Source: Leisingera sp. (GTDB lineage Bacteria > Pseudomonadota > Alphaproteobacteria > Rhodobacterales > Rhodobacteraceae). Taken from it: a DNA stretch of 58,656 bases. The position numbers and the translations under genes are program-made. The notes below the pieces were generated by a model. That model did no database searches, was not told where the DNA came from, and was given only the letters and a program-made list of their open reading frames with translations. Below are positions 30,583 to 53,633 of the stretch, one piece after another. The stretch is taken from positions 1 through 58,656 of the forward strand of contig NZ_JAXMOX010000001.1 in NCBI RefSeq assembly GCF_034669605.1. The letters run 5' to 3'. How positions within the stretch are numbered: position 1 is the stretch's first letter; each line of letters opens with the position of its first letter.

Positions 30583-30590
30583 GTATTGAG

Positions 30591-35757: not shown

Positions 35758-36795
35758 TCATTTCTTGAGGTTGGTCCAGATCTGGTCGTAGACTGCCTGG
35801 GTCTGCTGATCGCAGACTTCAATAAACACGCCCTCGCCTGCGTCTGCATGGGGGTTCTTTTCCGGCTGGGCGGCCAGCGCCGGGTCCAGGAACGCGCTTA
35901 CCCCGGTCACACCGGCATTGTACTGCGCATAATTGGTGACCACGGCGATGTTTTCCGGCTCCAGCAGGAAATCCATGAATTTCAGCGCATTGTCCCGGTT
36001 GGGCGCGCCCTTCAGCAGAACGACGTTATCCATCCAGGCGATATAGCCCTGGGTCGGATAGGCATATTCCACATTGGCGCCTTCCTCGCGCGCCTTGGCC
36101 GCAAAGCCATCATAGATCTGCCCCACGGCGGCATCCCCCGACACCAGAACTTCCTTGGCGGTGTCAGAGTTGAAGGACGCCCAGTGCTGCTTGGCCTGTT
36201 GCAGCATCGCATTCAGCGCCTTCAGCTGTTCGCGGTCGGTGGAGCACTGCGGGATCCCCATATGCAGCGAGGCCATCGCCATCACCTCGCCCTGGCTGTC
36301 CAGCATGTTGATCTTGCCCGACAATTCCGCCGGCGGCTCAAACAGAATGGCGGTGGTCTGGATATCCCCGTCATAGGCATCCCGGTTCACTGCAAAAGAG
36401 GTAGAGCCCCATTGATAGGGGATCGAGGACGCGCGGCCCGGGTCAAAGCCTGGATCGGCCCATACCGGCGCGATATTGCCTTTGTTCTCCAGCTCGCCGT
36501 CGGCGATGGTGTCCAGCAGACCCTCGCCCGCCATGATGCTGACCATGTAATCACCCGGCACCGCCAGGTCATAGGTGCCCATACTGCCGGCCTTCAGTGT
36601 CGCCAGCATTGATTCATTGGAGTCATAGGTGTCCATTGTCACCTCGATGCCGGTCTCCGCGGTGAATTTTTCCAAGAGCTCCTGCGGCATGTATTCGAAC
36701 CAGTGGTACAGCACCAGCTTGCCCTCGGCGGCGGCGGCATTGGCGGCCAGGCTCAGCGCAAACGCCGCGGCGCTGGATTTCAGCAGGGTTTTCAT
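35758..36795 (-). CDS. PotD/PotF-family ABC substrate-binding protein
   Basis: Signal peptide; WFEY, TYDSNE, PYQWG, WMD, KFMDFLLEPE. Confidence 0.9.
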   Translation of the reverse strand: MKTLLKSSAAAFALSLAANAAAAEGKLVLYHWFEYMPQELLEKFTAETGIEVTMDTYDSNESMLATLKAGSMGTYDLAVPGDYMVSIMAGEGLLDTIADGELENKGNIAPVWADPGFDPGRASSIPYQWGSTSFAVNRDAYDGDIQTTAILFEPPAELSGKINMLDSQGEVMAMASLHMGIPQCSTDREQLKALNAMLQQAKQHWASFNSDTAKEVLVSGDAAVGQIYDGFAAKAREEGANVEYAYPTQGYIAWMDNVVLLKGAPNRDNALKFMDFLLEPENIAVVTNYAQYNAGVTGVSAFLDPALAAQPEKNPHADAGEGVFIEVCDQQTQAVYDQIWTNLKK

Positions 36796-36815: not shown

Positions 36816-37625
36816 TTATTTTGTGGTGTCGGATTTGCTGACGAAGTAGCTGATGGTGACCATCACCACCGAGACGCTCAGCAGCATCGTCGAGATCGCC
36901 ATGATGTTGGGCTTGATGCCCTGTTTGACCGAGCCGAAAATCGCGGTCGGCAGGGTCTCAACCCCCGCGCCCTTGACGAAATTGGTGATAATGAAGTCGT
37001 CCAGCGAAACAATGAAGGCGAGCAGAAACCCCGAGATGATGCCCGGCGCCATCAGCGGCATCAGAATTCTGGTAAAGGCCTGCCGCCGGGTGGCGTAGAG
37101 ATCCATCGCCGCCTGTTCAAAGCTGTCCTCGATTCCCTGCATCCGGGCCGAGATCGGCAGGTAGGCAAAGGGGATGCAAAAGGCGATATGGGCCACCAGA
37201 ATAGTCATGTAGCCGCGGGTGAAGCCGATGGCGTTAAAGAAGATCAGCGTTGCCACCGCGGTGACGATCTCCGGCACCATCAGCGGCAGGCTGATCAGGC
37301 CAAACGACACCGTGCGCAGTTTGAAAGTGCCGCCGCGCACCATCGCCGTGGCCGCCAGCGTGGCAATTGCCGTGCTGGCCGTCGCCGCGATGATGGCAAT
37401 CGTAAAGCTGTTGATCGCGGCGGTCTTGAACTTGCCGCTTTCCGGTCCGGTGAACACATCGGCGTACCAGCGCAGCGAGATGCCCTCCCAGTTGGTGATC
37501 GATTGGGAAGCATTGAAGCTGTAGATGGTGACGATCACCAAAGGGGCATAAAGCACCACCAGGCACAACAGGGTGATCGCGCGGAAGCCTGTGTAGGTCT
37601 TTATGTCGTTGTTTACATGCGCCAT
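36816..37625 (-). CDS. PotC-type ABC permease
   Basis: [26 protein letters not shown]. Confidence 0.9.
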
Positions 37626-37628: not shown

Positions 37629-38558
37629 TCAGCCCCCTGCCTTGTCTGCTTTGGCCTGCTGGCGGGCCGAGAACATCAGGATGACCAGCACCATACTCAG
37701 CAGCACCATTGATGCAGCGGCGCCGAACGGCCAATTGCCGGCATTGCCCTTGAACTGTTCCTCGATCAGCGAGCCGATCATGAAGTTCTTGGCTCCACCC
37801 AGAAGATCGGGCGCCAGGAACGACCCCATCGAGGGCACGAACACCAGGATGCAGCCCGCCACCACGCCCGGTTTCACCGCCGGCAGCACGATCCGGCGCA
37901 GGGTGGTCCATTTGCTGGCGTAAAGATCCGCCGCCGCCTCGGACAGCGAGAAGTTGTAGCGTTCCACCGCCGCATAGACCGGCAGCACCATGAACGGCAG
38001 ATAGGAGTAGAACAGCCCCAGCTGCACCGCAAAGTTGGTGTTGACGATATGGATCGGGCTATCGATCAGCCCGGTGCCGATCAGGAAGTCATTCAGCGGG
38101 CCCTGGTCCCGCAGCAGGAACTTCATCGAAACGGTGCGGATCAGCAGGTTCACCCAATAGGGAATGGTGATCAGGAACACCCACATCGGCCGCGCATGTT
38201 CCGGCCGGGTGGCGATGAAATAGGCGGTCGGGAAGCCGATCACCAGGCTCAGCAGCGTTGCCGCCCCGGCCTGCCAGATCGAGCGCCAGAAGATGGTGAT
38301 ATAGGTCCATTCGATCGCCGGCGGCTCATCCCCGAACAGCCCGCGGTCAAAGAAGAACTGATCATAGGCCGAAAGGCTGAATTCCCAGATCACCCCGCCG
38401 CGGAATTCCTTGGTCAGGAAAGAATAGACCAGCATCATGCAGACAGGACCCAGCACAAAAATGCCAAGCACCGCCCAGGACGGCAGCAGCAGCCAGCCGC
38501 GGGCGTCCTTGTATGTGTCTGCGCGGGCCGAGCCGCCGCTTGCTGCGCCTGCTGCCAT
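37629..38558 (-). CDS. PotB-type ABC permease
   Basis: PYWVNLLIR, YLPFMVLP, EAAADL, PDLLGG, NWPFGAA. Confidence 0.9.
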   Translation of the reverse strand: MAAGAASGGSARADTYKDARGWLLLPSWAVLGIFVLGPVCMMLVYSFLTKEFRGGVIWEFSLSAYDQFFFDRGLFGDEPPAIEWTYITIFWRSIWQAGAATLLSLVIGFPTAYFIATRPEHARPMWVFLITIPYWVNLLIRTVSMKFLLRDQGPLNDFLIGTGLIDSPIHIVNTNFAVQLGLFYSYLPFMVLPVYAAVERYNFSLSEAAADLYASKWTTLRRIVLPAVKPGVVAGCILVFVPSMGSFLAPDLLGGAKNFMIGSLIEEQFKGNAGNWPFGAAASMVLLSMVLVILMFSARQQAKADKAGG

Positions 38559-39649
38559 CAGTCCATCAGGAGGCGCCCGGCCCCCAGCTCCATGTTGACG
38601 AAAATTTCGCTGCCCGGCTCGAAAATCCGCTTGTTTCCGCGGTCGGAATTGGAGGTCCGCACGATGAACTGCGGCCCTTCGGCCAGATCGACCAGAGTGC
38701 TGATGTCGGTGCCGACAAAGATGTTCTCGGCGACCCGCCCTTTCAGGCTTTCGGCCTCCACCGGCGCGTCGGACATGAACAGCCGCTCGGGCCGCACCGA
38801 CATATGCACCTTGGCGCCGGTCCCTATGCCCTCGACCGAATTGCAGGACAGCGCCTGGCCGCCGCCCAGATGGCAGGTCGCTCGGCCGTTCATGACCTGA
38901 TCCACCGACACCTCCAAAAGATTGGTCTCGCCGATGAAATCCGCCACAAACATATTGCGCGGCTGCTCATAGATCTCGGTCGGGGTGCCCAGCTGCTGCA
39001 ACTCGCCCGCCGACATCACCGCGATGCGGTCGGACATGGTCAGCGCCTCTTCCTGATCGTGGGTCACAAAGATGAATGTGATCCCGGTTTCCCGCTGCAG
39101 GTGCTTCAGTTCCAGCTGCATCTGCTTGCGCAGTTTCAGGTCCAGCGCCGACAGCGGCTCATCCAGAAGCAGGACTTTGGGCTGCGGCGCCAGCGCACGC
39201 GCCAGCGCCACACGCTGCTGCTGGCCACCGGAGAGCTGGGACGGTTTGCGGGCAGCGAACTGCGACAGCTGCACCAGCTCCAGCATTTCGCCTGCGCGGG
39301 TGCGAGCCTCAGCCTTGGACTTGCCGCGCATTTCCAAGCCAAAGGCGACGTTGTCCAGGTTCGTCATATGCGGAAACAGCGCATAGTTCTGAAACACCGT
39401 GTTCACCGGCCGCTGGTGCGGGGGAAGTTTGGCAATCTCCTCGCCAAACAGCAGGATCTCTCCTTCGGTCACATCCTCGAACCCGGCGATCATCCGCAAA
39501 AGCGTGGTCTTGCCGCAGCCAGACGGCCCCAGCAGGGTGAAGAACTCATTGTCCTCGATGGTCAGCGAGATCCGCTTGAGGGCTGTGAAATCGCCATAGC
39601 GCTTGACCGCATTGCGCACATCAATTGCGTTTGTCGTATTGCCGGGCAC
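38558..39649 (-). CDS. PotA-type ABC ATPase
   Basis: GPSGCGKT, LSGGQQQR, LLLDEP, VTHDQEEA; GTG start. Confidence 0.93.
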   Translation of the reverse strand: MPGNTTNAIDVRNAVKRYGDFTALKRISLTIEDNEFFTLLGPSGCGKTTLLRMIAGFEDVTEGEILLFGEEIAKLPPHQRPVNTVFQNYALFPHMTNLDNVAFGLEMRGKSKAEARTRAGEMLELVQLSQFAARKPSQLSGGQQQRVALARALAPQPKVLLLDEPLSALDLKLRKQMQLELKHLQRETGITFIFVTHDQEEALTMSDRIAVMSAGELQQLGTPTEIYEQPRNMFVADFIGETNLLEVSVDQVMNGRATCHLGGGQALSCNSVEGIGTGAKVHMSVRPERLFMSDAPVEAESLKGRVAENIFVGTDISTLVDLAEGPQFIVRTSNSDRGNKRIFEPGSEIFVNMELGAGRLLMD

Positions 39650-39735: not shown

Positions 39736-39750
39736 TTAGTCTGCGCCTAA
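39736..39750. promoter_or_regulatory. LysR-type box, copy 1 (upstream of the ABC transporter)
   Basis: TTAG-tctgcgc-CTAA; same motif at 43484 and 48614. Confidence 0.65.
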
Positions 39751-39970
39751 TCTTTTAAAGTTGTTCAGCGTCAATAGATTAGCATTTTCATGGCGAGACT
39801 TTCCGGGCGGGGAACTGCAGCGCTCCGCAGGGAAACCGGGATACGCCCGGGGGGCCGCATCCGCACGGCGCCGGGGGAAACGGGAAAATTGTCATCTGAC
39901 AATTCCGCTGGAACTCAAAGCCAAATCCGCCATCAGAACAAAGCCGCAGCATCCTGCGCCGCCCCTGCCG

Positions 39971-41122
39971 CTACTGTGTCAGGCCGCCGAGGATGCGGTC
40001 CATCATCGCGTCGCAGGCCGTCAGCTGGCGCAGCTCCAGATATTCGTCGGGCTTGTGCCCCTGCCCCGCCATCGAGCCGGGACCGCAGACAACGGTCGGC
40101 ACGCCCAGCTGATGGAAAAACCCGGCCTCGGTGCCAAAGGCAACTTTTGTGGTGCGGCTGCTCCGGGCGAGCGTCCGGGCATAATCGGCGACCGCACTGT
40201 CCGCTGGCACATCCAGACCGGGGTAGGCGTTGTATTGCTCCACCTCGATGCGGGCGTCCTTTGCCGGATAGCGGCAGGAAACCCGGTCTGCCGCGTCCCG
40301 GATCCGCGCCAGTATGTCCGCGCCCCGGTCAGCCGCCAGATGGCGGTACTCAAAGGTCAGCTCAGCCCGGTCCGGCACGATGTTCAGCGCGGTGCCGCCG
40401 GACATTTTCCCCGCGTGGACAGTGGAATAGGGCACGTCATAGGCTGCGTCCCGCGGGCCATTGGCGGCGAAATCCGCCTGCAGCGCGCGCAGTTCGGCCA
40501 GCAAGTCCGCCGCCAGGTGCAGCGCGTTGGTAAAATCCGGTGCCAGGGCGGAATGGCCGCTTTGGCCGTGGCACACAGCACGCAGGGCAGCCTTGCCCTT
40601 GTGGCCGATGGCCACCTGCATTTCCGTTGGCTCTCCCACGATACAGGCCCGCGGGCTGCCGATCAGCGGTGCCAGCCGCTCCAGCATTTGTTGAATGCCG
40701 ACGCAGCCGACTTCTTCGTCATAAGACAGCACAATTTTCAACGGCTCGTTCAAATTTACTGATGCCGCCCGGTCCGCCAGCGCCAGAACACTGGCCGCAT
40801 ATCCCTTCATATCGGTGGTACCGCGGCCATAGATGCGCTCGCCCTCGCGGGTCAGTCGGAAAGGGTCGCGGGTCCACTCCTGGCCGTCCACCGGCACCAC
40901 ATCAGTATGCGCCGACAGCAGAACCCCCGGCCCTGCCAGGCCTTTTTCGGCATAAAGCCCCGTTTTGGTGCCATCCGGCGACGGCAGCCGCGTCACCGCA
41001 AAGCCGCGCTCCACCAGAAAGGCCCCGGCATAGGCGGCCAGGTCCAGATTGGAGTTGCGGCTGACCGTGTCAAACGCGATCAGCCGCTCCAGGATCTCCA
41101 GCGTCCGTGACGTGTCAGTCAA
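39971..41122 (-). CDS. M20 ArgE-family amidohydrolase (HinG-like)
   Basis: SAHTDVVP, GRGTTDMKG, DEEVG, VGEPT, GTEAG, HKPDE; TTG start overlapping the dodecin stop. Confidence 0.88.
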   Translation of the reverse strand: MTDTSRTLEILERLIAFDTVSRNSNLDLAAYAGAFLVERGFAVTRLPSPDGTKTGLYAEKGLAGPGVLLSAHTDVVPVDGQEWTRDPFRLTREGERIYGRGTTDMKGYAASVLALADRAASVNLNEPLKIVLSYDEEVGCVGIQQMLERLAPLIGSPRACIVGEPTEMQVAIGHKGKAALRAVCHGQSGHSALAPDFTNALHLAADLLAELRALQADFAANGPRDAAYDVPYSTVHAGKMSGGTALNIVPDRAELTFEYRHLAADRGADILARIRDAADRVSCRYPAKDARIEVEQYNAYPGLDVPADSAVADYARTLARSSRTTKVAFGTEAGFFHQLGVPTVVCGPGSMAGQGHKPDEYLELRQLTACDAMMDRILGGLTQ

Positions 41123-41321
41123 GCCGGAACCCGATTTTGAGCGCGACCTGGTAGTGCGCGACCTTGGCGTTCTCGACATGGCCGCGGATCTCGCCGACCT
41201 CGAACCAGCTGATGTGGTCGATGGTCTTGGACGCTTTGGCAATCGCGCCGCTTACCGCATCCTCGATGCTGCTGGCGGAGCTGCCCACCACATCGACCGT
41301 CTTGTAAATTGAGTCACTCAT
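41115..41321 (-). CDS. Dodecin (flavin-binding)
   Basis: YKTVDVVGSS, WFEVGEIRGHV, HYQVALKIGFRLD; 68 aa; ggag RBS. Confidence 0.92.
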   Translation of the reverse strand: MSDSIYKTVDVVGSSASSIEDAVSGAIAKASKTIDHISWFEVGEIRGHVENAKVAHYQVALKIGFRLD

Positions 41322-41332
41322 CACTTTTCTCC

Positions 41333-43402
41333 TCACTCTGCAGCCAGCTCGGTGATCTCGCGGCGGAATGGCAGCGCATCGCCGATATCCGGCTCATCCA
41401 GCTCCCGCGCATAACGGTGGCCTGCGTAAGTAGCCCACGCAATCGGCCCCGGCGCGTTCGCATCGCCGATCAGTTTGACCGATTTGATGCCTGCGTCCAG
41501 CCATTCCGCCTCGCGGGAGAGGAGATTTTCATAAAGCCCATCGTTACCAATGCGCGAAGCGACCATCACAACCGCGTCCGCCTCGATATTCCAGGTGCGG
41601 TCCGTATAGGTGCAGTTGGAGACCACATAACCGGCGTGGATTTCACTAATGCCCTGATTGAGAACGATTTCCACCCCGGCGTCGACCAGCCGCGGATGGA
41701 TCGCCACCTGCTCCAGAGTGTTGTTGGTCCAGTCGCTGACATAGGCCGAGGGTGTCACCAGCGTCACCTGCGCGCCTTTTGACGCCAGCAGCTCGGCCAG
41801 CACCCCGCCCATGTAATAATGGTCATCATCATAAACCACCACACGGCCTTCGGGGATGGTGCCGTCCATCAGGTCATCGGGGGTATAGATCCTTGCGCCT
41901 GCGGCAATCGGCATCGGCACCACGTGCTGGCGCGCGACCCCGTCGGCGCGCCATGTCGCTCCGGTTGCGATGCAGATGTTTTCAAAGCCGAATTCCAGAA
42001 TGCTGTCCGCATCCAACGGGCTTTCGCGGTAGATCTCCACATTCGGGCGCTGGCTCAGCTGGTAGTCGCGGTAATCCACCACCCGGCCCCAGGCGTTGAG
42101 GCCCGGCAGCATGCGTTCGCGCGTTACCCGGCCGCCGATCACATCCTTGGCCTCGGCCACCGCCACGTCATAGCCGCGGCGGCACAGCGCCCAGGCGGCC
42201 TCCAGACCAGCCGGGCCGGAGCCGACCACCAGCACGTTATCGCTGCCGCCCTTGGTGTTCATCTTTTCCGGATGCCAGCCCTTGCGCCATTCCTCCATAA
42301 AGGTCGGGTTCTGGGTGCAGCGGCTGATCGACATAGTCATGTCGCCGGTGATGCAGATGTTGCAGCCGATGCATTCGCGGATGTCCTCGATGCGGCCTTC
42401 CTCGATCTTTTTTGGCAGGAAGGGATCGGCGATCGACGGCCGCGCGCAGCCGATGAAGTCGAGCGTGCCGGATTTCACCATCCTGGCCATCACGTCGGGG
42501 CTGGTGAAGCGGCCGACACCGACGATGGGTTTCTCCGTCAGCTCATGAATGCCGCGCACCAGCTGTTCCTGCGCGGCCTCTTCCTTGAAACGGCTGGGGC
42601 CGGAACAATCCTCCCACGTCCCCTGCGCCAGGTCCCACAGATCCGGCAGGTCCTTGTTCATCTCGATGTAATCGCGCACCTCGGCGTTGGAAAAACCCAG
42701 CTCGCCGATGGTTTCGTCCAGGCTGACCCGCAGCGTGATCGCCATGGTATCGCCCACCGCATCGCGCATGTCCGCGATGACTTCCTGGCTGAACCGCGCG
42801 CGGTTCTCCAAGCTGCCGCCGTACTCATCAGAACGCTGGTTGGTCGCCCGGCTCAGGAAGTGCTGGAAAATGCCGAACCCATGCGCGCCATAAAGGCAGA
42901 TCAGGTCGAAGCCAGCGTCCTTGGACCGTTTCGCCGCATTCACGAACCAGCGGCGCAGATCCCTGATGTCCTGCTTGTCCAGCGCGCGCGCCTGCACCGG
43001 GTCATTGGTAAAGGTGCGGATCGGCAGCGCCGAGGGCGCCAGCGGCACTTCCTTGGAATAAAGGTTCGGCCCGTTGATCCCGGAATAGGCCAGCTGAATG
43101 CCGGCCAGCGCGCCGTGCGTCTTCATCCGCTCCGACATCTTCCTGAGCTGCGGGATATCCTTGTCCTCCCACAGGCGCAGTTCGATAAAGGGGGTGATCT
43201 CGCTGGTGTGGTGCATCTCGCATTGTTCGGTGAAAATCACCCCCCAGCCGCCTTCGGCCTTGATGCCGCGCATCGCTGCCGCCGCCGACGGATCGCGGTA
43301 ACCGCCGCCGTTGCAATGCGGCACCTGGTAAAACCGGTTCTTGGCGGTAAGCGGGCCGATGTTCATCGGCTCGAACAGAATGTCATAGCGGGGATCGCGC
43401 AA
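41333..43402 (-). CDS. TMADH-family iron-sulfur flavoprotein, probable histamine dehydrogenase
   Basis: NRFYQVPHC (6-S-cysteinyl-FMN Cys), YGAHG, CIGCNIC-x11-C 4Fe-4S, GSGPAG; TEQ and ITGD residues as in histamine dehydrogenases; TTG start with aaggag RBS. Confidence 0.85.
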   Translation of the reverse strand: MRDPRYDILFEPMNIGPLTAKNRFYQVPHCNGGGYRDPSAAAAMRGIKAEGGWGVIFTEQCEMHHTSEITPFIELRLWEDKDIPQLRKMSERMKTHGALAGIQLAYSGINGPNLYSKEVPLAPSALPIRTFTNDPVQARALDKQDIRDLRRWFVNAAKRSKDAGFDLICLYGAHGFGIFQHFLSRATNQRSDEYGGSLENRARFSQEVIADMRDAVGDTMAITLRVSLDETIGELGFSNAEVRDYIEMNKDLPDLWDLAQGTWEDCSGPSRFKEEAAQEQLVRGIHELTEKPIVGVGRFTSPDVMARMVKSGTLDFIGCARPSIADPFLPKKIEEGRIEDIRECIGCNICITGDMTMSISRCTQNPTFMEEWRKGWHPEKMNTKGGSDNVLVVGSGPAGLEAAWALCRRGYDVAVAEAKDVIGGRVTRERMLPGLNAWGRVVDYRDYQLSQRPNVEIYRESPLDADSILEFGFENICIATGATWRADGVARQHVVPMPIAAGARIYTPDDLMDGTIPEGRVVVYDDDHYYMGGVLAELLASKGAQVTLVTPSAYVSDWTNNTLEQVAIHPRLVDAGVEIVLNQGISEIHAGYVVSNCTYTDRTWNIEADAVVMVASRIGNDGLYENLLSREAEWLDAGIKSVKLIGDANAPGPIAWATYAGHRYARELDEPDIGDALPFRREITELAAE

Positions 43403-43483
43403 TTTCCATCTCCTTTGGTGCAAGAGCACTCAAAGGGTACAGGACTGGGCGGGGCGCGAAAGGTCAGCTTGCGGAAGCATTGA

Positions 43484-43498
43484 TTAGCCTGCCGCTAA
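43484..43498. promoter_or_regulatory. LysR-type box, copy 2 (upstream of the dehydrogenase)
   Basis: TTAG-cctgccg-CTAA. Confidence 0.65.
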
Positions 43499-43507
43499 GC
43501 CGCTGGC

Positions 43508-44446
43508 CTACCCCTGCGGTACGGCGTTCAAACCGGGCAAGGCGCCGGCCTTCACCAAGTCCGTGCAATGCTCGACAAAGGAGCGGATGGTGATTGAGTT
43601 TTCCGAGTCCGGTGCCATCAGCAGCCCCATCCGCATCGGCCGCAAATCGCCCTTCAGCGGGATGAACTTCAGCGTCTTGCCGTCGGGGGACTGGTCATTG
43701 ATGGGACGGATATTGGCAATCGAATAGCCGTATCCATTGGCTACCAGACTGCGCATCACCGCGATGTCGCGGGTGCGTTCGGCCACGTTGGGCTTGATCC
43801 CGGCCTCATGGAAAAACGACAGGAAGTACTCGGCGCTGAACGGCAGGTCCAGCAGCACCATCGGATGCTCGCGCAGTTCCTTCACCGTGACCTCCGGCAG
43901 ATCCGCCAGCGGATGCCCCTCGCCGACCAGCGCATAGGGCGGCAGCTCCGCCAGGGTGATGAACCGCAGATCCGCCGGAATATCCAGATTGTAGGTCAGC
44001 GCAATGTCCAGCTCCGCCCGCCGGATACCGCTGAAAATTGCCGCCTGATCCAGCTCGATCTGGCGCACATGCACGTCCTTGTAGCGGTCCTCGAACCCGC
44101 GCCGCACCGCAGGCAGCACCACCTGGGCAAAGGTCAGCAGGCAGCCGATCGCCAGCGGCCCCCGCACCTGGCCGGAGATATCGCCGGCAATATCCATCAG
44201 CCGGTCCGCCTCGTGCAGGACGCTGCGGGCCTGCTCCAGCATCACCCGCCCCGCCTGGGTCAGCGCCAGCCCTTGCGCGTGCTGGCGCACAAACAGCGGC
44301 AGCCCGAATTCCTGTTCAAGCTGCGCAATCGCCGCCGAGATCGACGGCGACGACACGTTCACTTTCTCCGAGGCCAGCGCGATTGAGCCCGCCTCCCCGA
44401 CCGCAACGAAATACTCCAACTGGCGCAGCGTGTATCTGACTGGCAA
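43508..44446 (-). CDS. LysR-family regulator (HinK-like)
   Basis: YTLRQLEYFVAVGEAGSIALASEKVNVSSPSISAAI, MVLLDLPFS, RSLVANG. Confidence 0.9.
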   Translation of the reverse strand: MPVRYTLRQLEYFVAVGEAGSIALASEKVNVSSPSISAAIAQLEQEFGLPLFVRQHAQGLALTQAGRVMLEQARSVLHEADRLMDIAGDISGQVRGPLAIGCLLTFAQVVLPAVRRGFEDRYKDVHVRQIELDQAAIFSGIRRAELDIALTYNLDIPADLRFITLAELPPYALVGEGHPLADLPEVTVKELREHPMVLLDLPFSAEYFLSFFHEAGIKPNVAERTRDIAVMRSLVANGYGYSIANIRPINDQSPDGKTLKFIPLKGDLRPMRMGLLMAPDSENSITIRSFVEHCTDLVKAGALPGLNAVPQG

Positions 44447-44473
44447 GGGCAGGCTCTCCCGGGGCTTGGCGGA

Positions 44474-45970
44474 TCAGGTCTTGTACTTGATCCAGGTGGT
44501 CTTCAGCGCAGTGTACTTCTCCAGCGAGTGCAAGGACAGGTCCCGCCCGAAACCGGACTGTTTCATGCCCCCGAACGGCGTCTGCGCCGACAGCGCGTCC
44601 ACCGTGTTAACCGACACCGTGCCCACCTGCAGGCGGTCCGCCACCCGGCAGGCGCGGCTGAGGTTATCGGTCCAGACCGATGCCGCCAGCCCATAGACCG
44701 AGTCATTGGCCATTGCGACGGCCTCATCCTCGCGGTCAAAGGGAATAACCGACAGCACAGGGCCAAAAATCTCATCCCGCGCCAGCGGGTCGCCGTGGCT
44801 GACGTCATCAAAAATCGTCGGCTGCACGAAACATCCCTTGCCATCCACGGTGATCCGTTCGCCGCCCGCCACCAGATTGGCTGATGCCTTGCCCGCCTCG
44901 ACAAAACGCAGGATGCCCTCGGTCTGTTTCTCATCCACGATGGCCCCCATTTTCGACGCCGGATCCAGCGGATCGCCCGGCTGGGTGGCTTCGGCGCGGG
45001 CAATCAGCTTCTCGACAAATTCCTGCTGAATCGAACGTTCCACATAAAGCCGCGAGTTGGCAGAGCAGACTTCGCCCTGGTTGAAGAAAATCCCGAAGGC
45101 CGCCATATCCGCCGCCGCCTCCAGATCCCCGCAATCGGCAAACACCAGATTGGGGCTCTTGCCGCCGGTCTCGGGCCAGACCTGTTTCAGGTTCGACTGG
45201 CCGGAATACTGCATGAACATCTTGCCGATGGCAGTCGATCCGGTAAAGGCAAGGCAATCCACATCCATATGCAGCCCCAGCGCCTTGCCCGCGGTGGCGC
45301 CATAACCCGGCACCACGTTGAAGACCCCGTGCGGAACTCCGGCTTCCGCCGCCAGCTCCGCCAGCCGCAGCGCGCTCAGCGGCGATTGCTCCGCAGGCTT
45401 CAGCACAACCGAATTGCCCGCCGCCAGCGCCGCCGCCGCCTTCCAGGTCGCCATGTCCAGCGGGAAGTTCCAGGGCGTCACCGCCCCCACCACCCCCAAA
45501 GGCACGCGGGAGACCAGCGCCAAATCGCCCGGCCCGGTCGGCGCCACCTCGTCATAAATCTTGTCGATGGCCTCGGCGTGCCACTGGAAAAAATGCGCCG
45601 AGCCGGGCGCATCCACCGTCGCCGCATCGGTCACCAGCTTGCCCATGTCGAGCGAATCCAGCAGCGCCATCTCCTCCAGATTGGCGCGGATCAGGTCGGC
45701 CAACCGCAGCAGCACCGCCTTGCGATCCCCCGGCGCCATCTGCGACCAGCGCCCGTCCTCGAACGCCCGGCGCCCGGCGGCCACCGCGCGGTTCACGTCC
45801 TCTGCATCACATTCGGCAACCTGCGCCAGAACCTCGCCGGTCGCGGGGTTCACACTGGCAAAGGTTTTCCCCGACGCGGCATCCGTGAATTTGCCATCAA
45901 TGAAAGCCTGCCGGCGGAAAGACAGCGCCGCCGCGCGGCTTTTCCAGTCGTCATAGCTGTAGTCCAGCAT
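44474..45970 (-). CDS. PuuC-type aldehyde dehydrogenase (HinD-like)
   Basis: PWNFP, LKPAEQS, FTGS, ETGGKS, QGEVCSA, EIFGPV; start 45970 (RBS) or 46000 (ATGA overlap). Confidence 0.92.
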   Translation of the reverse strand: MLDYSYDDWKSRAAALSFRRQAFIDGKFTDAASGKTFASVNPATGEVLAQVAECDAEDVNRAVAAGRRAFEDGRWSQMAPGDRKAVLLRLADLIRANLEEMALLDSLDMGKLVTDAATVDAPGSAHFFQWHAEAIDKIYDEVAPTGPGDLALVSRVPLGVVGAVTPWNFPLDMATWKAAAALAAGNSVVLKPAEQSPLSALRLAELAAEAGVPHGVFNVVPGYGATAGKALGLHMDVDCLAFTGSTAIGKMFMQYSGQSNLKQVWPETGGKSPNLVFADCGDLEAAADMAAFGIFFNQGEVCSANSRLYVERSIQQEFVEKLIARAEATQPGDPLDPASKMGAIVDEKQTEGILRFVEAGKASANLVAGGERITVDGKGCFVQPTIFDDVSHGDPLARDEIFGPVLSVIPFDREDEAVAMANDSVYGLAASVWTDNLSRACRVADRLQVGTVSVNTVDALSAQTPFGGMKQSGFGRDLSLHSLEKYTALKTTWIKYKT

Positions 45971-45996
45971 CTCTTTCCCTCCCTGATCCGCCGCGC

Positions 45997-46671
45997 TCAT
46001 TCGTCGCCGGGCACGCCGTAGGACGGCGCCTCCCGCGGGTCGAGCGCACGCTGCACATAGGCGTCCAGCTGCGGCTTGTAGATCTCCCAGGCGGCGGCAA
46101 TGTTCTCGATGGGGCAGTCCCCGGTCCAGTCGCAGCGCAGATCCGCCACCGGCCAGCTCACCTTGTCGACGAGTTTCATGCCTGCCGAATGCACCGGCCC
46201 GGCTTCGCCGCCCGCCGCCAGCCCGGCGCGCATCGCGGCAATCAGCCGGTCGCCCAGATGCCCTTCAGCCGACTGAAACCCGTCCACAACCGCCTGGCAC
46301 ACCCCGTCATTGGCCAAAAGATTGCCGCCCGAGGCCGCGTCCTTGCCTTCCGCCTGGGTCCAGATCCCCAGGGAATTCGGCCCCGAATGAATGGCGGTGC
46401 CGCCGATGCTGTCCACCGCCAGCACCTGCCGGTAGTCGATGAACCGGCCGATCTCGCGCACCTTGGCCACCGCCGCCGCGGCGGTCATGCCCTGCTCCAT
46501 CAGATCCAGCGCCAGCGGGCCGAGGCTGGGATCGGTCACATTCTGGCTCGCCACCGCGCCAACGCCGGCGCGGGCAAAGGCACAGCGCGCCGCCACCGCC
46601 GGCGAAGAGGACGAAACCGCCACCCCGAACATGCCAGTCTGCGCACAGCGCGCCACAAGCGAAAAGGTCAT
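45997..46671 (-). CDS. DUF1028 Ntn-hydrolase-like protein (HinH-like)
   Basis: MTFSLVARC...GVAVSSSSPAVAARC, GNLL, AGGEAG, DLR. Confidence 0.88.
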   Translation of the reverse strand: MTFSLVARCAQTGMFGVAVSSSSPAVAARCAFARAGVGAVASQNVTDPSLGPLALDLMEQGMTAAAAVAKVREIGRFIDYRQVLAVDSIGGTAIHSGPNSLGIWTQAEGKDAASGGNLLANDGVCQAVVDGFQSAEGHLGDRLIAAMRAGLAAGGEAGPVHSAGMKLVDKVSWPVADLRCDWTGDCPIENIAAAWEIYKPQLDAYVQRALDPREAPSYGVPGDE

Positions 46672-46687
46672 TGCCGAACTCCCTGCT

Positions 46688-46745
46688 GCTTCTTTCTGGT
46701 TAAAAATTCTCCCGGGGGAGTGCGAGCGGGCAGGCAGCCCCCTCG
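46688..46745 (+). repeat. Dispersed intergenic repeat, family A full copy
   Basis: gcttctttctggttaaaaattctcccgggggagtgcgagcgggcaggcagccccctcg; related copies at 17459 and 35717. Confidence 0.7.
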
Positions 46746-46754
46746 TTTCCGCCC

Positions 46755-47171
46755 TTACTCCGGAATCACCGCCGTGCCGTCGATCTCCACCAGCCAGTCG
46801 GGCCGCGCCAGCGCCTGCACCACCAGCCCGGTCGAAACCGGATGCACGCCCTTGATGTATTCGCCCATGGTGCGGTAGACCGCCTCGCGGTGGCGCACGT
46901 CGGTGATATAGACCACCACCTTCACCAGATGCTCCATCGAGCCGCCTGCCTCCTCGATCAGCTGCTGGATGTTCTGCATCACCTTATGGGTCTGCTCGGC
47001 CGGATCGTGGCTGTCGATGTTCTTTGCATCCTCCAGGTTCTGCGGGCACTGGCCGCGCAGGTAGACGGTCTTGCCGCCGCTGGTCACCACCGCCTGGCAC
47101 AGATCGTTGTCCAGGTTCTGTTCCGGATAGGTGTCAGAGGTGTTGAATTTTCGGATACGGATATGGGCCAT
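46755..47171 (-). CDS. Rid-family protein (HinL-like)
   Basis: VYLRGQ, HLVKVVVYITD, PVSTG, WLVEIDGTAV. Confidence 0.88.
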   Translation of the reverse strand: MAHIRIRKFNTSDTYPEQNLDNDLCQAVVTSGGKTVYLRGQCPQNLEDAKNIDSHDPAEQTHKVMQNIQQLIEEAGGSMEHLVKVVVYITDVRHREAVYRTMGEYIKGVHPVSTGLVVQALARPDWLVEIDGTAVIPE

Positions 47172-47230
47172 GGTGTCCTCCTGGCGTGGCGGGATATCGG
47201 CGCCGCCGGGGCATCGCCCGGCGGCAGGGG

Positions 47231-48505
47231 TCAGACAGCGTCCGCGCGGGGCTCGCCGGGACGGCGGTAGCCCTCATAGTGGCGCTGGATGGCGATCTGG
47301 TCGGCCACATGCTTGGCATCATGCCAGACCCCCCAGATAAAGGTCGAGCCGCGCCGCGTCTGCCAGGGCAGCCCCAGGAAATAGATCCCCGGCTCGGCCG
47401 ACACGCCGCGCTGATGCTGCGGGCGGCCTTGGGCGTCAAAGGCATCGACCTGCATCCAGCTGAAATCCTGGCGGAAACCGGTGGCCCAAAGGATCGTGCT
47501 GATGCCTTCCTCTGCCAGATCCAGCGCCCGCACCGGATCGGTCAGGCTTGCGGGGTCCGGGAACGAACGGCGCGCGTCCGGTTCCTCCGGCAGATCAATC
47601 CCGGTGCGCGCCACATAAGCGTCAGCCAGATCCAGCATCTTCAGGTAATCGGCGTCGCCGCTGGCGATGTTGTCCTGCAGATCAGCGGCAAAATTCAGCA
47701 CCCCGGCCTCATAGGATTCCGTCAGCCCCAGAAGGGTCACGCCCTCGCCGGCCAAGCGGCGGAAATCCATAGTCCGGCCGCCGTAGGCGCCGCTGACCGA
47801 GATCGTCACATGCTCCTTGCCCGGCTCCATCGCCGCCTGGTCCCACAGGCCCAAGACCCCCAGCCACCAGACAAAATCGCGGCCCCGGTACATCCGCGGC
47901 GGGCGGTCGTGCGGGCCGACCGACAGATACACCTTGCGGCCCGCCCGGTTCAGCTCATCGGCGATCTGTGCGCCGGAAGAGCCGGCACCGACCACCAGCA
48001 CGGCGCCTTCGGGCAGCTGCTCAGGGTTGCGGTAATGGAAGGAATGCAGCTGATTCACCTCGGCACTTTCCGGCACCAGCGGCGGGATCACCGGGTGCTG
48101 AAAGGCGCCGGTTGCAGCCACAATCCGCTGCGTCTCGATCACCCCGCCCGAGGTTTCGACCCGAAAACCGCCCTGCCCTTCGATCCGGGTGGCGCTGGTC
48201 ACCTCAACCCCGGTGCGGACGGGGGCCTTGATCCGTTCGGCATATTCGGCAAAGTAATCCGCCACCCTCTCCTTGCCGGCAAAGGCCTCAGGATCGGTGC
48301 CGGTGAATTCGAGATTGGGAAAGCGGTCATGCCAGGCCGGGCCGTTTGCCACCAGCGAATCCCAGCGCCCGGTGCGCCAGGCCTCGGCGATGCGGTTCTT
48401 TTCCAGCACCAGATGCGGCACGCCATGGCGGGTCAGATGCTCGCTCATGGCAACGCCCGCCTGACCCGCACCGACTACCAGCGTGTCTATCTTTTCAATC
48501 GCCAT
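47231..48505 (-). CDS. Flavin-containing monooxygenase-like protein (HinF-like)
   Basis: GAGQAG, RWDSL, ATG, QLHSFHYRNP, GAGSSG, WATG; ggagag RBS. Confidence 0.88.
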   Translation of the reverse strand: MAIEKIDTLVVGAGQAGVAMSEHLTRHGVPHLVLEKNRIAEAWRTGRWDSLVANGPAWHDRFPNLEFTGTDPEAFAGKERVADYFAEYAERIKAPVRTGVEVTSATRIEGQGGFRVETSGGVIETQRIVAATGAFQHPVIPPLVPESAEVNQLHSFHYRNPEQLPEGAVLVVGAGSSGAQIADELNRAGRKVYLSVGPHDRPPRMYRGRDFVWWLGVLGLWDQAAMEPGKEHVTISVSGAYGGRTMDFRRLAGEGVTLLGLTESYEAGVLNFAADLQDNIASGDADYLKMLDLADAYVARTGIDLPEEPDARRSFPDPASLTDPVRALDLAEEGISTILWATGFRQDFSWMQVDAFDAQGRPQHQRGVSAEPGIYFLGLPWQTRRGSTFIWGVWHDAKHVADQIAIQRHYEGYRRPGEPRADAV

Positions 48506-48613: not shown

Positions 48614-48628
48614 TTCGCGTGCGGCTAA
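48614..48628. promoter_or_regulatory. LysR-type box, copy 3 (upstream of the FMO operon)
   Basis: TTCG-cgtgcgg-CTAA, one mismatch to the palindrome. Confidence 0.55.
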
Positions 48629-48752
48629 TCAGGGAATTTCCGATTTTTTACAGTGCCTTGCCGGACAACAGCAGGCAATAGAAACCGCCCCGCCGCGTGA
48701 GCGGCAGAGCGGCTGGAGGCGCGGCTTGTTTTGATAACCTGCGCGGCGAAGG

Positions 48753-50216
48753 TCAGCGCATCACGAAGGGGTCTGGAATCGGATCGTCGCTGGTGCGCAG
48801 CCACACGGCCTTGACCTTGGTGTAATCCAGCGCCGCCTGCAGCCCGCCCTCACGCCCGTGGCCGGACAGCCCGTGACCGCCAAAGGGCGCAATCGGGCTG
48901 ACCGCGCGGTAGGTGTTGACCCAGACGATGCCCGCCCGGATGCCGCGGATCATCCGGTGTGCACGGGTCAGGTTCCGGGTGAACACCCCCGAGGCAAGCC
49001 CAAAGGCGGTGTTATTGGCAATCTCCAATGCCTCGGCCTCAGTCTCGAAGCTGACCACCGACAGGACCGGGCCAAAGAACTCTCTGCTGAGGCAGGGGGC
49101 CTCCGGCGCCTCCGAGCAGTCCAGAATGGTGGGCGGGAAATAGAAGCCCTCCCCCTCCACCGCCGCACCGCCGGTAACCAGCTTGGCGCCCGCCTGCAGA
49201 GAGGTCTGGATCAGCCGCAGCGCATGGTCGCGCTGTTTCAGGGTGCACAAGGGGCCGACTTCGGTGGCCATGTCCTGCGGCGCTCCGATCACCACGGCCT
49301 CGGCCTTTTTCTTGAGCCGGGCCAGAAAGGCATCCTTGATCCCCTTCTGGATCACCAGCCGCGAACCGGCAACGCAGCTTTGCCCTGTCGCCGCAAAGAT
49401 CCCTGAAACCTGCGCGTTCACTGCGCTTTCCAGATCGGCGTCGTCAAACACGATGAAGGGCGACTTGCCGCCCAGCTCCAGCGAGGTGGAGGCCAGATTT
49501 TCCGCCGAGTTGCGCACGATATGGCGCGCGGTCTCCGGCCCGCCGGTGAACGCCACATGGGCGACCTTTGCATGGCTGGTCAGCGCCGCCCCCGCCTCCG
49601 GCCCGCCGGTGATCACGTTCAGCACACCGGGTGGAAACCCCGCCTGATCAAAGATGCGGGCAAATTCCAGCATCGGCGCCGGGCCTTCCTCCGAGGCTTT
49701 CAGAACAACGGTGCAGCCCGCCGCCAGCGCCGGGCCGATTTTGACAGCGGACAGGAACAGCTGCGAATTCCACGGCACGATGGCGGCCACCACGCCGACT
49801 GGCTCACGCCGCAGCCAGACCTCCATATCGGGCTTGTCGATCGGCAGATGCGCGCCCTCGATCTTGTCCGCCAGCCCGGCGTAATAACGGTAGTATTCCG
49901 CCACATAAGCGATCTGCGCCGAGGTCTCGCGGATGATTTTGCCGGTGTCGCGGGTCTCCAGTTCCGCCAGCCGCGGGGCATTCTCCGCCACCAGATCGGC
50001 GAGCCGCAGCAACAGCTTGCCGCGCTGGGTGGCACTCATGCCCGCCCATTCCGGCGAGAAGAACGCCGCCTCCGCCGCCGTCACCGCCCGGCCCGCATCC
50101 GCCGGTGAGGCAGCGGGCATCTGCGCCCAAGCCGCGCCGGTGGCGGGATCAAGGCTTTCAAAAGTTTCGCCCGCATCCTCAAACGCGCCGCCGATATACT
50201 GCTGGAAGGTCTGCAT
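48753..50216 (-). CDS. tgnC: Aldehyde dehydrogenase, TgnC-like
   Basis: PWNSQL, LELGGKS, GQSCVAG, ends IPDPFVMR; located in a tgn-type cluster. Confidence 0.82.
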   Translation of the reverse strand: MQTFQQYIGGAFEDAGETFESLDPATGAAWAQMPAASPADAGRAVTAAEAAFFSPEWAGMSATQRGKLLLRLADLVAENAPRLAELETRDTGKIIRETSAQIAYVAEYYRYYAGLADKIEGAHLPIDKPDMEVWLRREPVGVVAAIVPWNSQLFLSAVKIGPALAAGCTVVLKASEEGPAPMLEFARIFDQAGFPPGVLNVITGGPEAGAALTSHAKVAHVAFTGGPETARHIVRNSAENLASTSLELGGKSPFIVFDDADLESAVNAQVSGIFAATGQSCVAGSRLVIQKGIKDAFLARLKKKAEAVVIGAPQDMATEVGPLCTLKQRDHALRLIQTSLQAGAKLVTGGAAVEGEGFYFPPTILDCSEAPEAPCLSREFFGPVLSVVSFETEAEALEIANNTAFGLASGVFTRNLTRAHRMIRGIRAGIVWVNTYRAVSPIAPFGGHGLSGHGREGGLQAALDYTKVKAVWLRTSDDPIPDPFVMR

Positions 50217-50244
50217 TGGCAGGCTCCTTTACTGGAAGGCCGGG

Positions 50245-51282
50245 TTACTGGAAGGCGGGCATCACGTCCGTAATGAACCGCTCTAGCGAGGCTTTCTTGC
50301 GCTCAAAACTCATACTGGAGTCGATCCAGAACGAGTATTCGTCATAGCCCAGGGCCTCGTATTTCTTCAGCCGCTCGACCACAGCTGCCGGTTCGCCGAT
50401 CACCAGGTCGCGCGCCATCGCCTCAGGCGAGTAGAACGGATGCGCGGCGATTTCCTCGTCTGACAGCGGATCAATCAGTCCCTGAGTGACGTCCCGCTTG
50501 TTCATGAACCAGGCGCCAAAGTAGTTGTAGAAGCGGTTCAGCTCCTCCGCCCCGCGTTTCACATCCTCGGCGCTGTCCGCCACATAGGTGTGCTGCAGCA
50601 GCATGATCTTCGGCCGCGGCACGTCCGCGTGTTTCTCGCAGGCGGCGTTGAACTTGCCCATCAGATCTTCAATCTCGCCGTCGCCCTGCCACAGCGGCGT
50701 CACCTGCACGTTGCAGCCATTGGCCACCGCGAATTCATGGCTGTTCGGGTCGCGCGCCGCGACCCAGATCGACGGACCGTTTTCCTGCACCGGCTTGGGC
50801 GAGGATGAGGTTTTCGGGAAAGAATGAAACTCCCCTTCCTGCGCATAATCACCCTGCCACAGACGCTGCACTGCCGGGATCAGCTCGCGCATCCGCTGGC
50901 CCGCCTCCCAGGCGTCCATGCCCGGCATCATGCGTTCGTATTCATAGGAATAAGCACCCCGTGCGATGCCCAGGTCCAGGCGGCCATTGGTAATGATATC
51001 GGTCATCGCCGCCTCGCCCGCCAGCCGGATCGGATGCCAGAACGGTGCAATCACCGTGCCTGTCCCCAGCCGCACATTCTTGGTGTGCCGCGCCACGTCG
51101 ATCAGGTTCAGGAACGGGTTCGGCGCGATAGTGAAATTCATCCCATGATGCTCACCGGTCCAGACCGCGTGCATACCGCCGTCATCGGCGATTTTGCACA
51201 GCTGGATGAACTCGTCATACAGCTGCTTCTGATCCTGATCCGCCGAAATCCGCTCCATATGCGCAAAAAGCGAAAACTTCAT
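50245..51282 (-). CDS. tgnB: Luciferase-like flavin monooxygenase, trigonelline oxygenase-like
   Basis: MKFSLFAHMER, WTGEHHGMNFTIAPNPF, GIARGAY, WVAARDPNSHEFAV closely match A. baylyi TgnB as I recall it. Confidence 0.82.
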   Translation of the reverse strand: MKFSLFAHMERISADQDQKQLYDEFIQLCKIADDGGMHAVWTGEHHGMNFTIAPNPFLNLIDVARHTKNVRLGTGTVIAPFWHPIRLAGEAAMTDIITNGRLDLGIARGAYSYEYERMMPGMDAWEAGQRMRELIPAVQRLWQGDYAQEGEFHSFPKTSSSPKPVQENGPSIWVAARDPNSHEFAVANGCNVQVTPLWQGDGEIEDLMGKFNAACEKHADVPRPKIMLLQHTYVADSAEDVKRGAEELNRFYNYFGAWFMNKRDVTQGLIDPLSDEEIAAHPFYSPEAMARDLVIGEPAAVVERLKKYEALGYDEYSFWIDSSMSFERKKASLERFITDVMPAFQ

Positions 51283-52205: not shown

Positions 52206-53023
52206 GACGGCTCCTTTTCCGCTGATGCGTTCAGCCAGTCCCGCAGCGCCCTGTTGACCTCGGCGGGGGCAGTCAGGTTGACCATATGCCGGTGGCCTTC
52301 GATGACAACCGCGCGGCCTTGCGGCGCGGCATCAGCCATCCTCTGCGCCATGTCCGGCGTTGAGTTGGGATCGCCACCGCCGGTCAGCGCCAGCAGCGGG
52401 CAAGCGATGCCGCCGAACCCGTCCGCATAGGTGCTGTCGCCGCGGGCAAAGGCGGTGTAGGCCGCAGCGTAGCCTGCAAGGTTCACAGCCGACAGCCATT
52501 CCGCGACCTGTGCCCGCGCCGCCTGGTCCGCCGCACTTTCGCCGAACCAGCGGGTGAGCGGCGTTTCCAGATCAAAGCTGCCTGCGCGGATTTCGGCAGC
52601 GCGAGCTTCTACGGCTTGCCGCGCCTCAGGCAAACGCCGGAACACCCCATTCAGCAGCGCCACCCGCGCCACGTTCTCAGCATGGCAGACCGCATAGCCG
52701 CCGGCAATCAGCGCCCCCATGGAATGGCCGGCCAGCGACACCGGCCCCAGATCAAGCGCCTGCAGCACGGCGTGCAGCCAGTCCACATAATCCGGCAGCT
52801 CCGCGCCCTCAGGCAAGGGCACGCTGCCACCGTGGCCGGGCATATCCAGGGCAATCACCTTGTGGGTCAGGGACAGCGCCTCGATCTGCGGTGCCCAGGC
52901 TGCCGATTGCATGCCAACCCCGTGGATCAGCACCACCGGCGCCCGCAGCCCATCCCCCTGGCCCGCCCGTTGGCAGGTGACGGTGCCGTAAGGCTCAGAC
53001 AGCGGCAGGGTTGTCGGCGTCAT
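52202..53023 (-). CDS. tgnD: Alpha/beta hydrolase, TgnD-like
   Basis: IHGVG, DMPGHG, GHSMG, DPNS, RHM. Confidence 0.8.
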   Translation of the reverse strand: MTPTTLPLSEPYGTVTCQRAGQGDGLRAPVVLIHGVGMQSAAWAPQIEALSLTHKVIALDMPGHGGSVPLPEGAELPDYVDWLHAVLQALDLGPVSLAGHSMGALIAGGYAVCHAENVARVALLNGVFRRLPEARQAVEARAAEIRAGSFDLETPLTRWFGESAADQAARAQVAEWLSAVNLAGYAAAYTAFARGDSTYADGFGGIACPLLALTGGGDPNSTPDMAQRMADAAPQGRAVVIEGHRHMVNLTAPAEVNRALRDWLNASAEKEPS

Positions 53024-53597: not shown

Positions 53598-53633
53598 GGG
53601 CGGGTCTCTCGTATCTGATTCCAGTTGTCGTAA

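What the first reader, a model, noticed from the sequence alone, without database searches (positions are those of the whole stretch)
39971..48505. Putative histamine catabolic gene cluster that uses a histamine dehydrogenase instead of an aminotransferase
Seen: one co-oriented run of FMO - Rid - DUF1028 - ALDH - LysR - TMADH-family flavoprotein - dodecin - ArgE-like hydrolase. Established (recalled): Pseudomonas putida U degrades histamine with aminotransferase HinC, ALDH HinD, LysR HinK and HinF/L/H/G (FAD oxidoreductase, Rid, DUF1028, ArgE-like). Histamine dehydrogenases of Nocardioides simplex and Rhizobium sp. 4-9 are known mainly as isolated enzymes. Inference: this is a hybrid pathway, histamine -> imidazole-acetaldehyde (dehydrogenase) -> imidazole-acetate (ALDH) -> ring opening toward aspartate. 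No hinC-type aminotransferase lies in the cluster. I know of no description of this arrangement in roseobacters.
Basis: partly seen in the sequence, partly recalled or inferred. Interest (0 to 1): 0.85.

Follow-up and report, generated by a model that had tools for sequence, protein, structure and literature searches.

The report
Histamine breakdown regulon using a dehydrogenase
A marine Leisingera bacterium carries twelve neighbouring genes and a repeated DNA palindrome that likely form one switchable unit for importing histamine, oxidising it with a dehydrogenase in place of the Pseudomonas aminotransferase and opening its ring, which would give the enzyme used in fish-spoilage tests its natural pathway.

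Summary
All eight genes are real, intact and co-oriented. The flavoprotein's best solved relative is Rhizobium histamine dehydrogenase 6DE6, with 18 of 18 listed active-site and tunnel residues kept. The FMO, Rid, DUF1028, ArgE, ALDH and LysR match a proxy Pseudomonas-type hin locus at 38-68%. No HinC orthologue was found in the genome. The downstream Pot-type ABC transporter belongs to the unit. A palindrome, TTAG-N7-CTAA, precedes the FMO, dehydrogenase and potA genes. The dodecin is a lineage add-on (1 of 80 loci). The arrangement is common: 44 of 53 well-flanked dehydrogenase loci carry at least three hinFLHG-like genes. In a sample of 200 genomes of the family, 36 of 38 with the dehydrogenase have the FMO. 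The function is inferred, not measured. This scan already reported the same dehydrogenase-entry variant and an HpaB-swap variant on other DNA (e1-5137886, e1-5251827). Ten literature searches found no description. Verdict: new variant of a known pathway.

The parts
48614..48628 (.). Operator-like palindrome TTAG-N7-CTAA (1 mismatch), 109-123 nt upstream of the FMO gene
47231..48505 (-). HinF-like flavin monooxygenase, 424 aa; predicted imidazole-acetate monooxygenase
   Evidence: 68% to proxy HinF, only hit in G000; GxGxxG motifs at 12 and 173
46755..47171 (-). HinL-like Rid protein, 138 aa; has P-V-S where RidA-type proteins have P-A-R
   Evidence: PF01042; 57% to proxy HinL; alignments
45997..46671 (-). 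HinH-like DUF1028 protein, 224 aa; predicted amidase
   Evidence: PF06267; 53% to proxy HinH; tree
44474..45970 (-). HinD-like aldehyde dehydrogenase, 498 aa
   Evidence: 65% to proxy HinD, reciprocal best hit
43508..44446 (-). HinK-related LysR regulator, 312 aa
   Evidence: best PDB hit 6M5F = HinK, E 2e-51; next-best family member E 4e-25; best hit in G186 is its hin-locus LysR
43484..43498 (.). Perfect TTAG-N7-CTAA box upstream of the dehydrogenase gene
41333..43402 (-). Histamine dehydrogenase orthologue, 689 aa (Cys30, Fe-S motif at 344)
41115..41321 (-). Dodecin, 68 aa; accessory, lineage-restricted
   Evidence: NF043052 over cut-off; 1 of 80 loci
39971..41122 (-). HinG-like M20 hydrolase, 383 aa; predicted N-formylaspartate deformylase
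   Evidence: 46% to proxy HinG; best hit in G186 is its hin-locus gene
39946..39962 (-). Terminator-like hairpin after argE (weak consensus match)
39736..39750 (.). Perfect TTAG-N7-CTAA box upstream of potA
38558..39649 (-). PotA-type ABC ATPase
37629..38558 (-). PotB-type permease
36816..37625 (-). PotC-type permease
35758..36795 (-). PotD-type solute-binding protein; candidate histamine-binding protein
   Evidence: PotD-like gene in 41 of 53 well-flanked loci

Best explanation
This is likely a histamine-utilisation regulon in which a Pot-type ABC transporter is predicted to import histamine, a flavin/iron-sulfur histamine dehydrogenase would deaminate it in place of the Pseudomonas aminotransferase HinC, and Hin-type enzymes would carry the product to aspartate. 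Steps: (1) import by PotABCD (inferred from linkage, shared box and co-loss); (2) histamine to imidazole-acetaldehyde plus ammonia by HDH, with electrons likely passing to ETF (activity inferred from orthology; ETF coupling recalled from the TMADH family); (3) aldehyde to imidazole-4-acetate by the HinD-like ALDH; (4) hydroxylation by the HinF-like FMO; (5) ring opening and hydrolysis by the HinL-, HinH- and HinG-like proteins to aspartate (roles from the table of PMC6467879; order of intermediates recalled); (6) aspartate enters central metabolism, without the aspartase that some congeners keep in the cluster. The LysR is predicted to sense imidazole-acetate and act at three TTAG-N7-CTAA boxes. 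Shown directly: genes, homologies, residues, synteny and the box. Inferred: every activity, the substrate and the regulation.
For: HDH: 1259 bits to 6DE6 and 847 to 3K30, against 662 to 6L6J and 541 to TMADH; 18 of 18 residues listed in PMC10180351 are kept. Proxy hin locus L006 holds hinFLHG-K-DAC in one place; its LysR scores 590 bits to HinK 6M5F. Window proteins match it at 68, 57, 53, 46, 65 and 37.5%. Synteny: 44 of 53 well-flanked loci have at least 3 of 4 FLHG-like genes, 41 of 53 a PotD-like gene, and 0 of 80 a HinC orthologue. Control: hin-type genes lie beside 8 of 12 homologues with at least 13 of 18 pocket residues and 0 of 31 with 11 or fewer. Family sample: FMO in 36 of 38 HDH genomes (29 within 12 kb) against 31 of 162 others. 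Two congeners lack ALDH, HDH and Pot together but keep FMO-Rid-DUF1028-LysR-ArgE (L202, L204). Aspartase sits inside the cluster in 4 of 9 congener stretches; the Rhizobium gallicum locus adds aspartase, ETF and ETF-QO. Box: perfect in 26 of 55 FMO, 32 of 79 HDH and 21 of 27 potA upstream regions, against about 0.1 in shuffles; 2 of only 6 perfect sites in the 4.7 Mb genome are here.
Against: No growth, induction or enzyme data. Orthology rests on a proxy locus. C90 paralogues tie or beat the window for HinH, HinG and HinK. Rhizobium HDH also oxidises agmatine and diaminopropane at 10-13% of the histamine rate (PMC10180351), and the importer is of the polyamine type. The ALDH is missing from 20 of 53 well-flanked loci, and 2 of 53 have none of the four FLHG-like genes. 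Four of 12 high-signature homologues have no hin gene nearby, including L049 at 75%. The Rid lacks the RidA arginine, so its proposed deaminase role is unsupported. The box was not found, even with one mismatch, in six Pseudomonas-type loci, and the LysR is only 36-38% like HinK. No aspartase was found in G000, which is 95% complete. Related genomes are not independent samples.
Confidence: 0.85

Rival explanations
1. The pathway is Hin-like, but the main natural substrate is a histamine relative (for example an N-methylhistamine or another imidazole amine of marine animals or algae), with histamine as a secondary substrate.
For: The cluster persists in small marine genomes (G633 1.9 Mb, G469 2.3 Mb) where free histamine may be scarce (inference). 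A second oxygenase (HpaB family) sits beside the FMO in 3 of 53 loci, and a second Rid-DUF1028-ArgE cluster exists in G000, which suggests more than one imidazole substrate.
Against: The pocket is identical at 18 of 18 positions to an enzyme described as histamine-specific. The downstream genes match those induced by histamine in P. aeruginosa (PMC8231116, Table 1).
Confidence: 0.08
2. Two separate functions sit side by side: an imidazole-acetate scavenging module, plus a general polyamine/agmatine importer and amine dehydrogenase used for nitrogen.
For: The lower module occurs without HDH in 31 of 200 family genomes (18 such loci inspected). The PotD-type protein's closest solved relatives bind spermidine or putrescine. 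The enzyme has side activity on agmatine (PMC10180351).
Against: The same box precedes both modules. The ALDH is the reciprocal best hit of HinD. 36 of 38 HDH genomes have the FMO. A separate aminotransferase-plus-Pot locus exists on C16 (read as SpuC-type from recall).
Confidence: 0.05
3. Histamine is first handled by an aminotransferase encoded elsewhere in the genome, and the dehydrogenase is redundant or accessory.
For: G000 has a class-III aminotransferase on C16 at 48% to proxy HinC, and the assembly is 95% complete.
Against: Its best hits in G186 are two other aminotransferases (61-62%), not HinC (48%). True HinC relatives score E about 1e-257 against 1e-143 for this one. 0 of 200 family genomes pass 1e-170.
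Confidence: 0.02

Closest known systems
Hin histamine pathway of Pseudomonas putida U / P. aeruginosa PAO1 (HinABCDFLHGIJK), as summarised in PMC8231116 and PMC6467879
   Same: HinD-, F-, L-, H-, G- and K-like genes; F-L-H order kept; predicted route through imidazole-4-acetate to aspartate.
   Different: Dehydrogenase instead of HinC aminotransferase; Pot-type ABC importer instead of the APC permease HinA; no aspartase in this strain; a TTAG-N7-CTAA box not seen in Pseudomonas-type loci; one cluster instead of four regions.
Histamine dehydrogenases of Rhizobium sp. 4-9 (6DE6) and Nocardioides simplex (3K30)
   Same: Same family and length, Cys30, Fe-S motif, triad Tyr171/His174/Asp265 and all listed pocket residues.
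   Different: The paper sections I read treat them as isolated enzymes for food testing; here the gene sits in a full catabolic context. The gene neighbourhood in strain 4-9 itself was not examined.
Putative Brevibacterium histamine pathway (PMC6467879)
   Same: Hin homologues plus a proposed non-aminotransferase first step, so swapping the entry enzyme has a precedent.
   Different: There the substitute is a copper/topaquinone histamine oxidase in actinobacteria; here it is a flavin/Fe-S dehydrogenase in alphaproteobacteria.

Membership tests
Histamine dehydrogenase (TMADH family) | Cysteine for the 6-S-cysteinyl-FMN link and a 4Fe-4S motif | tested here: met
   Cys30 and C-x2-C-x2-C-x11-C at 344; cofactors from PMC10180351, motif spacing recalled
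Histamine dehydrogenase (TMADH family) | Triad Tyr171/His174/Asp265 and pocket residues of the Rhizobium enzyme | tested here: met
   18 of 18; distant homologues keep 5-11 of 18
Histamine dehydrogenase (TMADH family) | Closer to 6DE6/3K30 than to other TMADH-family enzymes | tested here: met
   1259 and 847 bits against 662 and 541
Histamine dehydrogenase (TMADH family) | Measured oxidation of histamine | not testable with these tools
   needs an assay
Canonical Pseudomonas Hin pathway | HinC aminotransferase | tested here: not met
   best G000 hit 48%, not reciprocal
Canonical Pseudomonas Hin pathway | HinA APC permease | tested here: not met
   no tblastn hit at E 1e-20 in G000
Canonical Pseudomonas Hin pathway | HinD aldehyde dehydrogenase and HinF monooxygenase | tested here: met
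   65% (reciprocal best) and 68% (only hit in G000) to proxy locus L006
Canonical Pseudomonas Hin pathway | HinL, HinH, HinG | tested here: met
   57, 53, 46% to the proxy; not one-to-one, because C90 paralogues score alike; in the DUF1028 tree window and C90 fall in one supported clade apart from the Pseudomonas-type clade
Canonical Pseudomonas Hin pathway | HinK regulator responding to imidazole-acetate | tested here: inconclusive
   closest solved relative is HinK, but 36-38% identity and a box not found in Pseudomonas-type loci; ligand untested
Canonical Pseudomonas Hin pathway | HinI aspartase | tested here: not met
   only a fumarase-like partial hit in G000; present in 4 of 9 congener stretches
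Canonical Pseudomonas Hin pathway | HinB and HinJ regulators | not tested
   no reference sequences were at hand
RidA-type imine deaminases | Catalytic arginine (Arg105 numbering, recalled) | tested here: not met
   P-V-S in the window and P-I-S in proxy HinL where solved relatives have P-A-R

The most novel reading that the evidence does not exclude
Dehydrogenase entry is the standard alphaproteobacterial route of histamine catabolism. About one in five sampled genera of the roseobacter family, and some streamlined marine genomes, carry it as a modular regulon with its own operator (TTAG-N7-CTAA), a dedicated histamine ABC importer, and two interchangeable, unrelated imidazole-acetate oxygenases (FMO-type and HpaB-type). 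Histamine would then be an overlooked marine dissolved organic nitrogen source.
Probability: 0.5. Interest if true: 0.68.

Novelty: new variant of a known kind. Interest (0 to 1): 0.5.

Why it matters
It would give a long-studied enzyme of fish-spoilage tests its physiological pathway. It names a candidate histamine-binding protein and a regulator-operator pair that can be tested directly and could serve as sensors. It would extend histamine catabolism from Pseudomonas to abundant marine and soil alphaproteobacteria, including host-associated ones. The chemistry itself is known, and the scan has seen the variant on other DNA, which limits the surprise.

Tried and rejected
P. putida U and PAO1 Hin sequences could not be fetched, so locus L006 served as proxy. 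Dodecin as a pathway member: rejected (1 of 80 loci; it stays when HDH is lost in L202 and L204). The upstream AA_synth-hydrolase-flavin reductase-LLM-ALDH operon as part of the unit: rejected (LLM in 1 of 80 loci, a second copy on C119, a terminator-like hairpin at 48684-48705). The downstream carnitine cluster: no conserved link (0 of 80 loci at 40% or more). The C16 aminotransferase as HinC: rejected. The C218 hit as aspartase: fumarase-like (565 bits to fumC against 362 to aspA). The sigma-70 scan gave no excess over shuffles. A search for a perfect palindromic operator in 14 Pseudomonas-type or other proteobacterial and HpaB-type loci (18 regions) gave nothing shared. The perfect box on C33 overlaps an unrelated gene start; the three other genome-wide boxes were not examined. 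No structure prediction, complex prediction or read mapping was run, since none would test the substrate.
Full report
Observation. The eight genes are present, intact and on the - strand in the order given. Family scans give FMO-like/Pyr_redox_3, Rid (PF01042), DUF1028 (PF06267), Aldedh, LysR, Oxidored_FMN, dodecin and Peptidase_M20. The nearest named record is a Leisingera methylohalidivorans plasmid (97.8% for the flavoprotein; same gene order), so the genome is read as Leisingera. G+C is like the rest of the window.

The first enzyme. The best solved relatives are 6DE6 (1259 bits) and 3K30 (847), both histamine dehydrogenases, ahead of 6L6J (662) and trimethylamine dehydrogenase (541). PMC10180351 (abstract, introduction and first results read; parts 1-2 of 7) identifies 6DE6 as the Rhizobium enzyme and names active-site and tunnel residues. 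I checked 18 of them, and all are identical at the same numbers, including Cys30 and the triad Tyr171/His174/Asp265. As a control I took 43 loci from the 67 other places found in a 400-genome class sample. Hin-type genes lie beside 8 of 12 homologues with at least 13 of 18 residues and beside 0 of 31 with 11 or fewer. Several control stretches are cut by contig ends, and the signature tracks overall identity.

The Hin homologues. A phylum-wide FMO search (36 of 401 genomes) yielded locus L006, which has FMO-Rid-DUF1028-ArgE, a LysR, and ALDH-APC permease-class III aminotransferase together. Its LysR scores 590 bits against 6M5F, which a table in PMC11495319 names as P. aeruginosa HinK (passages). 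Against this proxy the window proteins are 68% (F), 57% (L), 53% (H), 46% (G), 65% (D) and 37.5% (K) identical. The window ALDH, ArgE and LysR find their L006 counterparts as best hits in that genome. Against a one-to-one reading, a paralogous cluster on C90 scores as well or slightly better for H, G and K. In a DUF1028 tree of 42 hand-picked rows, window and C90 share a supported clade separate from the Pseudomonas-type clade; the Rid tree (38 rows) is less resolved. The Rid lacks the arginine of RidA-type proteins, as does proxy HinL (role of the arginine recalled).

What is missing. No HinA hit was found in G000. The best aminotransferase (C16, 48%) is closer to two other G186 enzymes (61-62%) than to HinC. 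True HinC relatives score about 1e-257, those other enzymes about 1e-165 and C16 1e-143; 0 of 200 family genomes pass 1e-170. A more divergent HinC would be missed by this test. No aspartase was found in G000, which is 95% complete. One lies between argE and potA in 4 of 9 congener stretches, and the Rhizobium gallicum locus has aspartase with ETF and ETF-QO.

Distribution. The genome scan covered 19 of 64 parts of the collection and kept the best 80 of 588 relatives, so it is biased to close relatives. Of 53 loci with at least 7 kb on both sides, 44 have three or four FLHG-like genes, 46 the LysR, 41 a PotD-like gene and 33 the ALDH; 2 have none of the four. None of the 80 has a HinC orthologue, eight have distant class III aminotransferases (25-37%), and one has the dodecin. 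In the genus, 18 of 24 other genomes have the dehydrogenase at 92% or more. In 200 family genomes, one per genus, 38 have it at 64% or more; two further hits at 56% were left out. Of the 38, 36 have the FMO (29 within 12 kb), against 31 of the other 162. Kin are not independent, so the Fisher value is not quoted as evidence. The 18 FMO-only loci inspected mostly hold the lower module alone. Congeners G016 and G012 lack ALDH, HDH and transporter together, which separates an upper amine module from a lower imidazole-acetate module. Six of six FMO-bearing genomes of one other alphaproteobacterial genus have the hybrid cluster.

Regulation. A motif search on 45 FMO upstream regions gave TTAG-N7-CTAA, which contains the T-N11-A LysR box described for HinK in PMC10912698 (passages). 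It is perfect in 26 of 55 FMO, 32 of 79 HDH and 21 of 27 potA upstream regions, against about 0.1 in base shuffles. It has at most one mismatch in 9 of 10 held-out FMO regions. A few divergent FMO/HDH promoters overlap the training set. In the window it is perfect before HDH and potA (2 found, 0.04 expected) and has one mismatch before the FMO (one-mismatch sites alone are not above chance). Only 6 perfect sites exist in the genome. It was not found in six Pseudomonas-type loci or on C90. This ties the transporter to the unit and suggests three transcription units under one LysR; binding is untested.

Mechanism. The most likely route is import, dehydrogenation to imidazole-acetaldehyde, oxidation to imidazole-4-acetate, flavin-dependent hydroxylation, then ring opening and hydrolysis to aspartate. 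Enzyme roles come from PMC8231116 (introduction read, plus passages) and the table in PMC6467879 (passages). The primary papers (de la Torre 2018; Wang et al. on HinK, name recalled) were not seen. ETF as acceptor is recalled from the TMADH family and fits L002. Confidence 0.85. The rivals are a related imidazole amine (0.08), two unrelated modules (0.05) and a redundant dehydrogenase (0.02).

Novelty. It works like the Pseudomonas Hin pathway but fails three of its defining features (HinA, HinC, HinI), so it is a variant, not a member. Ten searches of the open library (listings only, apart from the five papers cited) showed no description of a dehydrogenase-plus-hin cluster. Subscription papers and their supplements are not covered, and de la Torre's genome survey could bear on this. 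PMC6467879 already proposes an oxidase in place of HinC. This scan reported the dehydrogenase-entry variant and the HpaB swap on other genomes. I had reached both readings before those look-ups, and the notes are not independent support. The short notes shown there do not mention the operator, the linked importer or the co-loss control. Interest 0.5.

Noticed in passing
L042:3406-13159 (G000:C90): Second cluster in the same genome: HpaB-family monooxygenase, Rid, DUF1028, ArgE, LysR, flavin reductase, HutD and an ABC transporter, without FMO. Possibly a second imidazole ring-opening pathway.
   Followed up: partly
L107, L149, L163, L172, L174 (also L050, L051, L148, L188, L224): An HpaB-family oxygenase lies in 5 of 8 well-flanked HDH loci that lack the FMO, against 3 of 45 that have it: a candidate non-orthologous replacement of HinF.
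   Followed up: partly
L023:10610-11953; also L125, L129, L134, L138, L139, L149: A group II PLP decarboxylase directly follows HDH in seven loci. It passes no NCBIfam cut-off; it could make histamine from histidine or act on another amino acid.
   Followed up: partly
L002:2406-7242: The Rhizobium gallicum cluster is preceded by aspartase, ETF beta/alpha and ETF-QO genes; L103 also has aspartase and ETF genes.
   Followed up: partly
window 48753-54391: AA_synth, alpha/beta hydrolase, flavin reductase, LLM monooxygenase and ALDH operon with a divergent GntR; a second copy (86-96%) is on C119. An LLM-ALDH pair also lies near the hin genes of L013. Substrate unknown.
   Followed up: partly
window 29057-34570: Carnitine catabolic genes (carnitine dehydrogenase, BKACE, acetoacetate-CoA ligase, GlxA-type regulator) downstream of the transporter.
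   Followed up: partly
plasmids collection: 105 of 236 plasmid records with a HinF-like FMO are Klebsiella (about 60% identity in the rows shown); neighbourhood not examined.
   Followed up: no
L110, L117, L164, L170, L002: An Amidohydro_3 gene often follows the more distant Pot-type transporter in HDH loci (7 of 80); it might release an amine from an N-acyl precursor.
   Followed up: no
window 1-58656 versus L001: The gene order from ugpA to the carnitine genes matches a 221 kb plasmid of L. methylohalidivorans, so the window may be plasmid or chromid DNA.
   Followed up: no
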